Virus record (IMG/VR): IMGVR_UViG_648276671_000016 | DNA: 18,138 bases | Strand: one strand, 5' to 3' | From: a virus | Lineage: Duplodnaviria; Heunggongvirae; Uroviricota; Caudoviricetes | The notes under the pieces: generated by a model | The model's input: the letters and a program-made list of their open reading frames with translations, nothing else | Told to the model about the DNA's origin: nothing | Databases searched by the model: none | Made by a program: the position numbers and the translations under genes | In this document: in pieces, positions 8,738-12,000 of the stretch | How the letters are laid out: each line of letters starts with the position of its first letter | Position numbering within the stretch: the stretch's first letter is position 1

Positions 8738-9080
8738 AGCTAAAGTATTAGCTTAAAAATAAAGTATACCTAGCGAATATAATCTAGGACAAGTTGTAAC
8801 GCCCGAAAAGATTGATTGCGTGAGTAACAAAATTTTTCTTCCATTGTTGTGAAATCATTTAGCCATAAAGTTTATGCAGAGATTTTATTTTATTTTTTAG
8901 TTGATTTTTTTGTAACGTTCTGTATATTTCGCGCCTCTTGTCATACCAGTTATTTTTTTCATTATATTCATAACGTTGATTGAACTATGACCACTGTGAA
9001 TAAAAGTTAAAAAAACTGCATCTGGCGCGATTACATGGTCGGTAATTGTTACCCAGATATTATCTCCAGTTTCTCTTTCT

Positions 9081-12000
9081 TTGATCCCAGCAAACAGTTT
9101 TGCATCATCTGGTAATAAAGATGTTACGCAAACTTATGCCAGCGATGAGCATGCAAATAAAGTGGCCTCATTTGCAGCAAGTGCAGGTCAGAGCCTGGCG
9201 AATAATAATGCAAGTAGTTTTGCTGTAAATACTTTATCAACTCAGGCGACAAAAGAGGTCGTCGACTGGTTGCAACAATATGGCAATGCGCGCATCAAGC
9301 TTAATGTCGATGATTCTTTTTCCTTGAAGGATTCATCATTCGACTTTTTATATCCATGGCTGGATACTCAGGATTATGTGCTATTCAGTCAGACATCACT
9401 ACATCGTACTGATGACCGAAATCAGACCAATATTGGTTTGGGGATTCGTCATTTCACTCCTGATAACGCAATGTTGGGTGCGAATGTTTTCTATGATTAC
9501 GATTTAAGTCGCAGTCACTCTCGTGCAGGTTTTGGGGTTGAGTACTGGAGAGATTATTTCAGGCTTGGTGTAAATACCTATTTTGGTTTGTCTGACTGGA
9601 AGAACAGTCGGGATATTGATGATTATCTGGAAAGACCCGCAAATGGCTGGGATTTTTCTGCTGAAGGATGGCTACCTGCTTATCCGCAATTAGGGGCATC
9701 CATTCAGTTTGAAAAATATTATGGTAAAAATGTCGGGTTATTTGGAAGCGATAATCTGCAGGAAAACCCTTACGCAGTTACTGGGGGAATTTCTTATACA
9801 CCAGTTCCTCTGATTAAGTTTTCTGTACAGCATAAGCAAGGACAGAGCAACGTTCACGATACAACCTTTGGTGTTGAGTTTAATTATCGCCCGGGCGTTT
9901 CCCTTGCTGAACAGCTTAGCAGTGACAATGTTGCTGTTATGCGAGAAGTCCAGAACCGGCGTTATGATTTTGTTGAACGAAATAACAACATTGTTCTGGA
10001 GTACAAGAAGAAGCATGCACTGAAAATCAGCTTACCAGAGTCTGTTCAGGGGGAGGGGGAATCAATCATCCCTGTAACACTGACAATCAGCAATGCTAGT
10101 GGTGGTATCAAGTCTGTACAGTGGAATGATAGTGCATTCACTGCGGCTGGCGGTAAGATCAGTGGAAATGGCACATCATGGCAGATCACTTTACCGGCTT
10201 ATAAAAGCGGAGATGTAAATTCGTGGAATGTTGGAGCCACAGTCCAGGATAACAGAGGCAATGTTTCCAACTATGCCGTGATGAATATCAGCGTTACTAA
10301 TAGTGGTGTCTCGACGGCTGATTCATCTTTTACGCTGGATGGGGATTCGTCTCCGACGATCTCTGCTGATGGTCAATCCACTTATCCAATAGTATTAAGC
10401 CTGAAAGACAGTAACGGTAAGGCATTAACCGGACTGGCTGATGACATTGAAATGTCTGTGGAATTTACTGCGGATAGCAATAGTGCTCGACAGCGTGAAA
10501 CGGTAACTGCTCCGTCATTAGGCGCGGTAGAGGAAATCTCTGCTGGTGTATATCGCTCTGTTCTGGCTGCTGGTTCGCAGGCTGGTACGGTACGTGTAAC
10601 TGCAAAAGTAATGAATAAAACATTTACTCTCAGTATTAAGCAAACAGCAGCAACAGAACCTGATTCTGAGGTTAGTGCTGTTTTAACCGCTGCACCAGCA
10701 GAACAGGTAGTTGGTTACAATATCAATCTACAACTGGCAGTGATGGATTCACAAGGAAATGCAATCACTGGTGATAACACTCTGAGCTTTTATGCTCTTA
10801 ACCAGGCAGAAGGAGTCGAGTTTGGGACTGTAACGGAAAAAGACGGTGTCTATAGCGCGACAGTAACTTCAAAACGAGCAGGTAAGATTACTATCGGTGT
10901 TAAATCTGATAGTCATGATTTCTCAGGTGTTAAGAAAGAAATCACCTTTATTGAGGACCGGCAGCAGGTTACATTCTCTCAGTTTGAAGCCAGCCAAAAT
11001 AATGCATTGGCTGATGGAAAACAGAGAAATATGGTAACTGTAAGCCTTGCGGACCGTTTCGGTAATGTTGTTTCTGGTTATGCTGTCACATTGTCTTTAC
11101 CAGCAGGGGTAACTCAAGTTGGTGATGAACATGCTGTTTCAACTGACGAAAATGGTAATGCTGTTTTTGCGTTAGTAAGCACTATTCCTGGTTCTTATGT
11201 GGTTACAGCGCATGCTGGTAACCAGGTATCGTCTGAGTTGGTCGTCACGTTTGCGTCAAATATGACCGGAGCTTCACTATCACTGACGCCTGAAAACAGT
11301 AGCTTAATTTCCAATATTCCTGCTAACGGTAAGGATGCAGCGGTATTGAATGTACAGCTAACAAATAATACTAATGCCTCGGTCAATGGACAGAAGATTC
11401 AACTCATCACCTCATCTGAAGGATTGTCTGTACCGACAAATATCGTGACTGATTCAACAGGGCATGTTTCTGTTCCGCTTACAACGGTGAAAGCTGGCGA
11501 GTACACGGTGACTGCACGGGTGACTGACGGTTCCCATAGCGTGGAATCTGGCAGCGTTAAGTTAATTTTTGTGCCGGATTTTACATCCGCAAAACTTACC
11601 GTAGGTTTGTCAAAACAAGAGATTGTTGCTGATGGTAATGATAGCGCGACAGTAGATCTTCAGTTGGTCGATGCTAATAACAATGCGTTTACAGGTGAAG
11701 TTAGTTTATCAGTCACGCCATCGGGGGGTAAATTAACCAACAACACTCTTGCTCTTGACGGTATGGGGAGAGCTAAGACTCAGTTCATGGCGACGAATGC
11801 TGGTCAGTACACGATCTTGGCTGAATATGCTAAAGAAGGAAAACGTATAACAGCCAGTCAGAGTCTTGATGCTGTGACAGATGTCAAAAACGCTACCCTA
11901 ACGATCTCGTCTGACTCGAGTTCTGCAGTGGTGAGTGATACTGATAATCTGGCGTTTACTCTGCTGCTGAAAAGTGAAACAGGGCAAGCGTTAGCTAACC

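What the first reader, a model, noticed from the sequence alone, without database searches (positions are those of the whole stretch)
8987..9120. Inverse autotransporter ORF lacks a start and signal peptide; a possible +1 frame break at a short A-run
The 3.5 kb intimin/invasin-family frame is open only from 9000 and has no ATG or GTG before the barrel motifs, so as written it cannot be exported. The nearest upstream ATG (8987, MTTVNKS-stop) is in another frame. Removing one A from the AAAA run at 9002-9005 would fuse it to the main frame, giving MTTVNKVKKTASGAITWSVIVTQILSPVSLSLIPANSFASS..., a basic N-region followed by a moderately hydrophobic segment. This points to a recent frameshift, a slippage-prone switch (A7 tract at 9009-9015 is adjacent), or an assembly error. 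The intact 1157-codon body argues the disruption is recent.
Basis: partly seen in the sequence, partly recalled or inferred. Interest (0 to 1): 0.55.

Follow-up and report, generated by a model that had tools for sequence, protein, structure and literature searches.

The report
Broken start of prophage adhesin gene
A prophage-borne intimin/invasin-type adhesin gene in the draft genome of E. coli TA280 is cut off from its start codon and export signal because two neighbouring A-runs are each one base shorter than in near-identical prophages; this is an ordinary homopolymer frameshift and most likely a sequencing error.

Summary
ATG 8987 opens a 7-codon stub (MTTVNKS-stop), and the 3.5 kb inverse-autotransporter frame is open only from 9000 with no usable start ahead of its signal peptide.

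Intact homologues start at the same ATG but read A5-GTT-A8 (MTTVNKKLKKTASG...). The window reads A4-GTT-A7, so it has two 1-nt deletions, not one extra A.

The window is E. coli TA280 (GCA_000176655.2), a draft from the Broad Institute's E. coli antibiotic-resistance project. Its whole 18,138 nt are 99.96% identical to prophages in independent assemblies. Those carry the intact 1189-aa gene, which differs from the repaired TA280 protein at one residue. The only two gaps in that alignment are these two A-runs.

No other sequence shares A4/A7: 0 of 560 complete-genome records, 0 of 34 metagenome contigs and 0 of 29 IMG/VR contigs. About 80 other homopolymers in the window agree with the relatives.

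Best reading (about 0.6): a homopolymer-length consensus error. Main rival (about 0.3): a genuine, very recent null allele.

A programmed frameshift, a 5' deletion and a frequently switching phase-variation tract are not supported. Low interest.

The parts
8738..8986 (+). AT-rich (29% GC) intergenic region between phage replication gene P and the adhesin gene. It carries sigma-70-like hexamer pairs at 8901-8928 and 8938-8965. No strong Shine-Dalgarno sequence precedes the ATG.
   Evidence: GC content. Promoter scan found 4 sites against 1.7 expected, so this is weak evidence. Sequence read.
8987..9010 (+). Native start codon (8987-8989) followed by a 7-codon stub ORF, MTTVNKS-stop. In intact alleles the same ATG opens the full-length gene.
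   Evidence: EC958, Z1323HEC0475 and strain 1442 CDSs start at the equivalent ATG. Alignments.
9002..9005 (+). A4 run. It is A5 in every other sequence examined: the 500 complete-genome records that match the A5/A8 81-mer exactly, the 4 A8-length variants, 29 IMG/VR contigs, 34 metagenome contigs and the near-identical prophages L046-L049.
9009..9015 (+). A7 run, A8 in intact alleles. The first two A's together with T9008 form the TAA that ends the stub ORF.
   Evidence: Other length variants of this run: A7 in 3 records, A9 in 1 and A6 in 1.
9000..12554 (+). Main open frame of the inverse autotransporter: 1184 codons plus stop. It is intact apart from the missing start.
   Evidence: Differs from the repaired 1189-aa allele P0002 only at V281A. 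Only one SNP in the gene (9826) against L047-L049.
9016..9104 (+). Rest of the signal-peptide coding region: TASGAITWSVIVTQILSPVSLSLIPANSFA. It has a hydrophobic core (maximum Kyte-Doolittle 1.95 over 15 aa) and an A-x-A-like SFA|SS cleavage site. It is stranded without the Lys-rich n-region and the ATG.
   Evidence: One search gives the hydrophobicity and charge count. The cleavage site is inferred from the -3/-1 rule; SignalP was not available.
9030..9032 (+). In-frame ATT. NCBI's PGAP pipeline uses the equivalent codon as the start in other broken alleles (H22, Ec-91, A37). There is no SD and no basic n-region, so efficient initiation is unlikely.
   Evidence: with positions worked out from the sequences.
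9081..9083 (+). In-frame TTG used as the start of the deposited 1157-aa protein EGI41670.1. The product would begin MIPANSFASS, with no signal peptide.
9153..9986 (+). Inverse-autotransporter beta-barrel domain (PF11924, aa 52-329 of the 9000-frame).
   Evidence: E 8e-101. (invasin 4E1T, intimin 4E1S).
10008..12551 (+). Passenger made of Ig-like Big_1/Invasin_D3 repeats. It includes a single copy of a 357-nt unit (about 10294-10650) that is present in 2-4 tandem copies in other alleles.

Best explanation
The locus is a cargo gene of a lambdoid prophage integrated next to icd. It lies between replication gene P and the nin region. It encodes an unnamed intimin/invasin-type inverse autotransporter: a Sec signal peptide, a 12-strand-type barrel and an Ig-like passenger.

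In the E. coli TA280 draft assembly the first ten codons contain two adjacent A-runs that are each one base shorter than in all relatives (A5-GTT-A8 becomes A4-GTT-A7). The net loss of 2 nt puts the native ATG and Lys-rich n-region (MTTVNKKLKK) out of frame with the rest of the signal peptide, the barrel and the passenger. As written, the gene could give only a 7-residue peptide, or a protein with no export signal if translation starts at the in-frame TTG at 9081.

The most likely cause is a homopolymer-length miscall in the consensus of an early pyrosequencing-era draft, in which case the real TA280 gene is intact. This is inferred, not shown.

Shown here: the identity of the gene, the exact nature of the break, its uniqueness, and the near-identity of everything else.

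Inferred: the cause. The inference rests on the homopolymer-only pattern, the lack of any independent support, the draft quality of the assembly, and the much lower prior probability of two independent real deletions 4 nt apart.
For: 1. The window is TA280, GCA_000176655.2 scaffold GL884341.1, a Broad Institute 'escherichia_antibiotic_resistance' genome (PMC4422515).
2. The full 18,138 nt align to L047 (GCA_027220125.1) and L048 (ENA ERZ21615856) at 99.96%, with 4-5 SNPs. The only two gaps are the two A-runs. Extending to 23.3 kb of TA280 adds no further indel.
3. The intact 1189-aa alleles begin MTTVNKKLKKTASG. The closest, P0002, equals the repaired TA280 protein except V281A.
4. A4/A7 occurs nowhere else. 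It is absent from 560 E. coli complete-genome records, of which 500 match the A5/A8 81-mer exactly. It is also absent from 29 IMG/VR contigs and 34 metagenome contigs, all A5/A8. The truncated 1157-aa product is on a single contig in the 153-billion-gene index.
5. Both differences are shortenings of homopolymers of the same base, 3 nt apart. The A8 would be the longest run in the region, since the window has no run of 8 or more.
6. The scaffold is draft quality. A 145-N gap lies about 45 nt past the window end, and its flanks overlap by about 340 nt.
7. [quoted passage not shown]
8. Other A8-length variants partly co-occur with further homopolymer deletions in the same assemblies. H22 also has A6 to A5 in ydaT. 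The IMG/VR contig also has G5 to G4 in the same gene.
Against: - All other homopolymers of 5 nt or more in the window agree with the near-identical relatives (81 such runs in the window, eight of them 7-mers). The assembly is therefore not generally error-ridden here.
- A miscalled 5-mer is unusual and needs a correlated local error. One candidate is dephasing after the long run on reverse reads. That is my inference.
- I could not confirm the sequencing platform with the tools. '454' is from memory.
- TA280 carries 4 private SNPs in the window, so some real divergence time exists in which a real mutation could have arisen.
- A7 alleles in Ec-91 and Br_167_kylling have no other indel in 7-10 kb, so real slippage at this run may occur.
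Confidence: 0.62

Rival explanations
1. This is a genuine, very recent loss-of-function allele. Two real 1-nt deletions occurred in the A5 and A8 runs, either in nature or during laboratory storage. They silence a surface adhesin, and the rest of the gene has not yet decayed.
For: - The local assembly is otherwise clean: 0 other indels in 23.3 kb.
- The A8 run is shortened or lengthened in a few other genomes, two of which have no other indel nearby.
- TA280 has 4 private SNPs in the window.
- Laboratory-specific frameshifts arise in strains of the same collection (PMC3484664).
Against: - It needs two independent rare events 4 nt apart, and the second gives no further phenotype.
- The A5 run is invariant in every other sequence examined.
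- The gene has no other lesion: 1 amino-acid difference in 1189.
- No independent assembly carries the allele.
Confidence: 0.3
2. The A5-GTT-A8 motif is a slipped-strand 'contingency' switch that turns the prophage adhesin on and off. TA280 was caught in a doubly slipped OFF state.
For: - The homopolymers sit in the first 10 codons, where any change of 1 nt abolishes export.
- Length variants A6, A7 and A9 exist.
- One in-frame +3 variant, TUM13881 with A5-GTT-A-GTT-A7, could be a compensated frameshift.
Against: - Variation is rare: 4 of 560 complete-genome records (500 of which match the A5/A8 81-mer exactly), 1 of 29 and 0 of 34. It is absent from the metagenome contigs, which I take to be mostly short-read assemblies.
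- An 8-nt run is short for a mismatch-repair-proficient E. coli (general knowledge).
- The A-runs follow simply from Lys codons in a signal-peptide n-region.
- From A4/A7, a slip in the A7 run cannot restore the frame, because TAA 9008-9010 precedes it.
Confidence: 0.06
3. The gene is expressed despite the break. This could happen through +1 ribosomal slippage of tRNA-Lys on AAA_A (9002-9005) before the rare AGT codon and TAA, through transcriptional slippage, or through initiation at ATT 9030.
For:
- ATT 9030 is in frame, and the equivalent ATT is the annotated CDS start in H22, Ec-91 and A37.
Against: - The frame break is not conserved in any homologue, so it is not programmed.
- There is no stimulatory structure: the fold z-score is -0.66, and there is no Rfam hit.
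- No SD-like element lies upstream of the slip site or of ATT.
- An ATT-initiated product lacks the basic n-region.
Confidence: 0.02
4. There is a true 5' truncation: a longer N-terminal region, for example one containing LysM, has been deleted.
For: None found.
Against: - Intact homologues of 1183-1540 aa begin at the same ATG, and the barrel domain starts about 50 residues in.
- There is no LysM hit in Pfam.
- The upstream intergenic DNA is colinear with the relatives.
Confidence: 0.003

Closest known systems
Invasin (Yersinia) and intimin (EPEC/EHEC): type Ve inverse autotransporters
   Same: An N-terminal beta-barrel (PF11924) with strong matches to the 4E1T and 4E1S barrels, followed by a passenger of Big_1/Invasin_D3 Ig-like domains. 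The intact alleles have a long Sec signal peptide with a Lys-rich n-region and an NSFA-type cleavage motif. From memory this resembles intimin's ...KLKKT...NSFA signal.
   Different: No LysM domain and no C-type lectin cap were detected. The gene is prophage-borne between P and nin rather than in the LEE or chromosomal inv locus. It falls far below the NCBIfam intimin cut-off: 338 bits against 1400.
E. coli IATs FdeC, YeeJ and IatA-D (Goh et al. 2019, PMC6714894)
   Same: The same family, and the same general architecture with variable passenger length.
   Different: It is not an equivalog of any of them. IatC N-terminal model scores 397 bits against a cut-off of 2400, and SinH/IatB scores 318 against 999. 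Those six genes sit at fixed chromosomal sites. This one rides on an icd-integrated lambdoid prophage found in about 10% of complete E. coli genomes, including ST131 EC958 and JJ1886.
Homopolymer-length consensus errors in pyrosequencing or long-read assemblies
   Same: Discrepancies are confined to mononucleotide runs, are usually undercalls, create apparent frameshifts in otherwise intact genes, and are unsupported by independent assemblies.
   Different: Two adjacent runs are affected, one of them only 5 nt long, while about 80 other runs nearby are correct. The platform is not verifiable with these tools.
Slipped-strand phase-variable surface proteins (Neisseria opa/pilC, Haemophilus and Campylobacter contingency loci)
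   Same: A homopolymer in the 5' coding region of a surface adhesin, whose length sets the reading frame.
   Different: The tract is short (8 nt), and tract length is nearly invariant across hundreds of genomes. Such switching is not typical of E. coli (general knowledge).

Membership tests
Inverse autotransporter (type Ve, intimin/invasin family) | Intimin-like beta-barrel domain (PF11924) | tested here: met
   Pfam IAT_beta aa 52-329, E 8e-101, 338 bits against a cut-off of 22. Matches PDB invasin 4E1T at E 2e-74 and intimin 4E1S at E 2e-63.
Inverse autotransporter (type Ve, intimin/invasin family) | C-terminal passenger of Ig-like (Big_1/Invasin_D3) domains, following the barrel | tested here: met
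   Big_1 in 5 stretches, E 1e-55. Invasin_D3 in 5 stretches, E 2e-43.
Inverse autotransporter (type Ve, intimin/invasin family) | N-terminal Sec signal peptide in frame with the barrel | tested here: not met
   In the window the ATG and n-region are in another frame. In near-identical alleles the feature is present: MTTVNKKLKK, a hydrophobic core and SFA|SS. The failure is a lesion of this copy, not of the family assignment.
Named E. coli IAT equivalogs (intimin, IatC, SinH/IatB, YchO) | Score at or above the NCBIfam curated cut-off | tested here: not met
   IatC N-terminal model 397 against 2400, intimin 338 against 1400, SinH 318 against 999, YchO/YchP 274 against 508. This is an unnamed paralogue.
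Slipped-strand phase-variable (contingency) locus | Repeat tract in the 5' CDS or promoter whose length change toggles expression | tested here: met
   A5 and A8 runs lie within codons 6-10. Any 1-nt change breaks the frame.
Slipped-strand phase-variable (contingency) locus | Frequent tract-length polymorphism among closely related strains | tested here: not met
   500 of 560 complete-genome records have the exact A5/A8 81-mer. Three are A7, one is A9, and seven sampled others are six equal-length SNP variants plus one in-frame +3 variant. Metagenome contigs are A5/A8 in 34 of 34 and IMG/VR contigs in 28 of 29.
Slipped-strand phase-variable (contingency) locus | Reversible ON/OFF switching within a clonal culture | not testable with these tools
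   Needs reads or cultures.
Programmed ribosomal frameshift | Frame break conserved among homologues | tested here: not met
   The break is unique to this assembly.
Programmed ribosomal frameshift | Slippery site plus stimulator (downstream structure or upstream SD-like element) | tested here: not met
   AAA_A is slippery, but the fold of 8975-9075 has a z-score of -0.66. There is no Rfam match and no SD-like element.
Homopolymer consensus error of a draft assembly | Differences from near-identical sequences confined to mononucleotide-run lengths | tested here: met
   The only 2 gaps in 18.1 kb, and in 23.3 kb, against L047/L048 are A5 to A4 and A8 to A7.
Homopolymer consensus error of a draft assembly | No independent assembly reproduces the variant | tested here: met
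Homopolymer consensus error of a draft assembly | Error-prone platform, and reads that disagree with the consensus | not testable with these tools
   The platform (454, Broad about 2010) is recalled from memory. Indirect support: a scaffold gap with overlapping flanks, and frameshift errors reported in the old H120 draft from the same strain panel.

The most novel reading that the evidence does not exclude
The Lys-codon A5-GTT-A8 motif at the start of this prophage-borne adhesin, which is carried by about 10% of E. coli including pandemic ST131, is a low-frequency slipped-strand ON/OFF switch. TA280 (A4/A7), H22, Ec-91 and Br_167 (A7), A37 (A9) and an IMG isolate (A6) would then be genuine OFF variants. 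TUM13881 (+3 nt) would be a compensated revertant. This would be a rare case of homopolymer phase variation of a phage-encoded surface protein in E. coli.
Probability: 0.07. Interest if true: 0.45.

Novelty: already known. Interest (0 to 1): 0.1.

Why it matters
It matters little biologically. If the break is an artefact, it only warns that EGI41670.1 and the TA280 draft misrepresent an intact adhesin gene. It also shows that annotation pipelines hide such breaks by choosing TTG or ATT starts instead of flagging a pseudogene.

If the break is real, TA280 is a natural null for a widespread but uncharacterised prophage adhesin. TA280 is a strain still used in comparative essentiality screens.

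The gene family may deserve study in its own right. It is prophage cargo, has 1-4 copies of a 119-aa Ig-like repeat, has a mosaic passenger, and is present in ST131. That is separate from this finding.

Tried and rejected
- I looked for the A4/A7 allele elsewhere using variant-specific 79-82-nt megablast queries against 5,426 complete E. coli genomes. I also ran gapped pattern scans of IMG/VR, metagenome contigs and GTDB species representatives. None was found, and the GTDB scan found no copy of the locus at all.
None is in the 15-billion-protein collection, so there is no second TA280 assembly to compare.
- I tried to fetch TA280 core-genome flanks through the integrase look-up. The protein is too common, and the TA280 contig was not among those read. 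Flanks could only be extended to 23.5 kb through the unique truncated protein.
- I searched the literature for the TA280 sequencing platform. No statement of platform was found.
- I checked for a frameshift-stimulating RNA element. None was found.
- I considered a LysM-region deletion and rejected it.
- I checked Goh et al. 2019 for a name for this IAT. It is not among fdeC, yeeJ or iatA-D.
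Full report
**What is in the sequence.**
Direct reading confirms every coordinate in the finding.
- ATG 8987 is followed by ACC ACT GTG AAT AAA AGT TAA, giving MTTVNKS-stop with TAA at 9008-9010.
- An A4 run lies at 9002-9005 and an A7 run at 9009-9015.
- The long frame is closed by TGA 8997-8999 and is open from 9000 to the stop at 12552-12554.
- In that frame the only start-type codons before the barrel are ATT 9030, TTG 9081 (the ORF listed) and GTG 9162. 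All lie downstream of the n-region of the signal peptide.

The protein is an inverse autotransporter.
- Pfam IAT_beta matches aa 52-329 at E 8e-101, with five Big_1/Invasin_D3 stretches.
- The barrel matches the solved invasin and intimin barrels 4E1T and 4E1S.
- There is no LysM hit.
- No NCBIfam equivalog cut-off is reached: IatC, intimin, SinH and YchO are all far below. It is an unnamed paralogue, and it is not one of the six E. coli IATs (fdeC, yeeJ, iatA-D) that Goh et al. took forward for study (PMC6714894).

**Context.**
The window is the left 18 kb of a lambdoid prophage integrated beside icd. Its genes run int, xis, exo/bet/gam, kil, a cI-like repressor, ydaS/ydaT and O, P. Then come the IAT gene and a convergent alpha/beta hydrolase. 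These are followed by ybcN/ninE/ybcO/rusA/Q, an AraC-type gene and the holin.

The locus occurs in 559 of 5,426 complete E. coli genomes, including ST131 strains EC958 and JJ1886.

**What the native 5' end looks like.**
In EC958, Z1323HEC0475 and strain 1442 the annotated CDS starts at exactly the ATG equivalent to 8987. It reads ATG ACC ACT GTG AAT AAA AAG TTA AAA AAA ACT, which is MTTVNKKLKKTASG....

The native motif is A5-GTT-A8 and the window has A4-GTT-A7. The lesion is therefore two separate 1-nt shortenings with a net loss of 2 nt.

The native N-terminus has the three parts of a Sec signal:
- four Lys in the first ten residues;
- a hydrophobic core (maximum Kyte-Doolittle 1.95 over 15 aa);
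- an SFA|SS site.

The TTG-9081 product (MIPANSFASS...) has no hydrophobic segment. The ATT-9030 product has no basic n-region.

**Where the window comes from and how close the intact alleles are.**
The truncated 1157-aa product occurs on one contig only in the gene index. That contig is NCBI GCA_000176655.2, scaffold GL884341.1, and the protein is EGI41670.1 of E. coli TA280.

TA280 is an isolate from an Australian native animal. It was sequenced in the Broad Institute's 'escherichia_antibiotic_resistance' project (PMC4422515).

Its 90% protein cluster contains 1189-aa members. All of these begin MTTVNKKLKKTASG. P0002 equals the repaired TA280 protein except V281A.

At the DNA level:
- The entire 18,138-nt window aligns to L047 (GCA_027220125.1) and L048 (ENA ERZ21615856) at 99.96%.
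- There are 4-5 SNPs and exactly two gaps, which are the two A-runs.
- With 23.3 kb of TA280 the result is the same, with no other indel.

The disruption is therefore either extremely recent or not real.

**How variable the tract is.**

| Collection | A5/A8 | Other lengths | A4/A7 |
|---|---|---|---|
| 560 complete-genome records | 500 exact 81-mers | A7 in 3 (H22, Br_167_kylling, Ec-91); A9 in 1 (A37) | 0 |
| 29 IMG/VR contigs | 28 | A6 in 1 | 0 |
| 34 metagenome contigs | 34 | none | 0 |

Seven of the other 56 complete-genome records were sampled. Six match at the same length with a single SNP (one, MRSN346647, was checked by alignment). The seventh, TUM13881, is an in-frame +3 variant.

Two of the five length variants sit in assemblies with another homopolymer deletion nearby. 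H22 has A6 to A5 in ydaT. The IMG/VR contig has G5 to G4 in the same gene. Ec-91 and Br_167 show no other indel in 7-10 kb.

The A5 run is invariant everywhere except in TA280.

This is not the picture of an actively switching contingency locus. The poly-A is the expected by-product of Lys codons in a signal-peptide n-region.

**Artefact or real?**

For an artefact:
- The differences are confined to homopolymers of one base, 3 nt apart.
- The A8 would be the longest run in the region, since the window has 81 runs of 5 nt or more and none of 8 or more.
- No independent sequence supports the variant.
- The scaffold is draft quality, with a 145-N gap whose flanks overlap by about 340 nt just past the window end.
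- Another old draft from the same strain panel (H120) was found to have many frameshift-causing sequencing errors (bioRxiv 10.1101/2020.05.25.114553). That H120 is also a Broad-project genome is from memory.
- From memory, these Broad genomes were 454/Newbler assemblies, for which homopolymer miscalls are the characteristic error.
- Dephasing after a long run could depress the next same-base flow. That would explain a correlated undercall of the neighbouring 5-mer. This is my inference.

For a real mutation:
- Every other homopolymer in 23 kb is correct, including eight 7-mers.
- TA280 has four private SNPs here.

Two independent real deletions 4 nt apart, the second giving no added phenotype, are a priori far less likely than a locally correlated miscall. 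I put the artefact at about 0.6 and a real null allele, natural or acquired in the laboratory, at about 0.3.

**Rescue mechanisms.**
From A4/A7, slippage in the A7 run cannot help, because the TAA at 9008-9010 comes first. Only a +1 slip of tRNA-Lys on AAA_A (9002-9005) would fuse the frames.

Several results argue against a programmed event:
- No homologue conserves the break.
- There is no Rfam match.
- The downstream RNA folds no better than shuffled sequence, with a z-score of -0.66.
- There is no SD-like element.

Programmed frameshifting is therefore rejected. The A5/A7 alleles do carry an in-frame A_AAA_AAA heptamer and could be slightly leaky. That is inference only.

**Verdict.**
It is a frameshift and not a deletion, it is recent or artefactual, and the proposed repair is wrong in detail.
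- This is an ordinary homopolymer frameshift in a draft assembly and most probably a sequencing error.
- Interest is low.
- The only mildly novel reading left open is a low-frequency slipped-strand switch in a prophage adhesin (about 0.07).

Noticed in passing
window ~10294-10650; L001 6057-7119: A 357-nt (119-aa) Ig-like unit of the passenger varies in tandem copy number. There is 1 copy in the window and in the 1183-1189-aa alleles, 2 in the 1302-aa alleles, 3.0 copies at 98% identity in EC958 (1421 aa), and apparently 4 in the 1540-aa proteins.
   Followed up: partly
window 8737-10642 versus 10294-12560: The passenger is mosaic. The 5' 1.9 kb is 97-99% identical to ST131-type alleles, but the 3' 2.2 kb is only 83-89% identical. 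This suggests recombination within the passenger.
   Followed up: no
L050 19103-19247 (about 45 nt beyond the window end): The TA280 scaffold has a 145-N gap. When aligned to L047, the two flanks overlap by about 340 nt. These are unmerged contig ends and a sign of draft quality.
   Followed up: partly
L052 201-284 (E. coli TUM13881): An in-frame variant, A5-GTT-A-GTT-A7 (+3 nt, MTTVNKKLVKKT). It could be a frameshift at the A8 run compensated by a 4-nt duplication, or a simple codon insertion.
   Followed up: no
L002 4792, L036 5062, L053 5064, L035 5113: RefSeq/PGAP annotates the broken A7/A9 alleles as ordinary CDSs starting at an ATT codon (H22, Ec-91, A37) or at the TTG (Br_167_kylling), rather than flagging a frameshift. 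GenBank did the same for TA280 with the TTG start.
   Followed up: partly
L002 2334 (= window 6572); L033 7513: Other homopolymer deletions occur in assemblies that also have a shortened A8 run. H22 has A6 to A5 in ydaT, annotated 'frameshifted'. IMG/VR 2870479586 has G5 to G4 inside the IAT gene.
   Followed up: yes
window 12586-13629 (-) and 16414-17157 (+): Two further non-phage-looking cargo genes. An alpha/beta hydrolase lies convergent with the IAT gene, and an AraC-family HTH gene lies between Q and the holin.
   Followed up: no
summary; e.g. NZ_CP195449.1 (195 kb) 46650-46730: Three of the 562 places holding this locus are on records classed as plasmids, so the prophage or its cargo module is occasionally plasmid-borne.
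   Followed up: no
window 4987, 9826, 13300, 16349: Four SNPs private to TA280 relative to L047, L048 and L049. 9826 causes A281V in the barrel domain and is the only difference in the whole 3.57-kb gene.
   Followed up: partly
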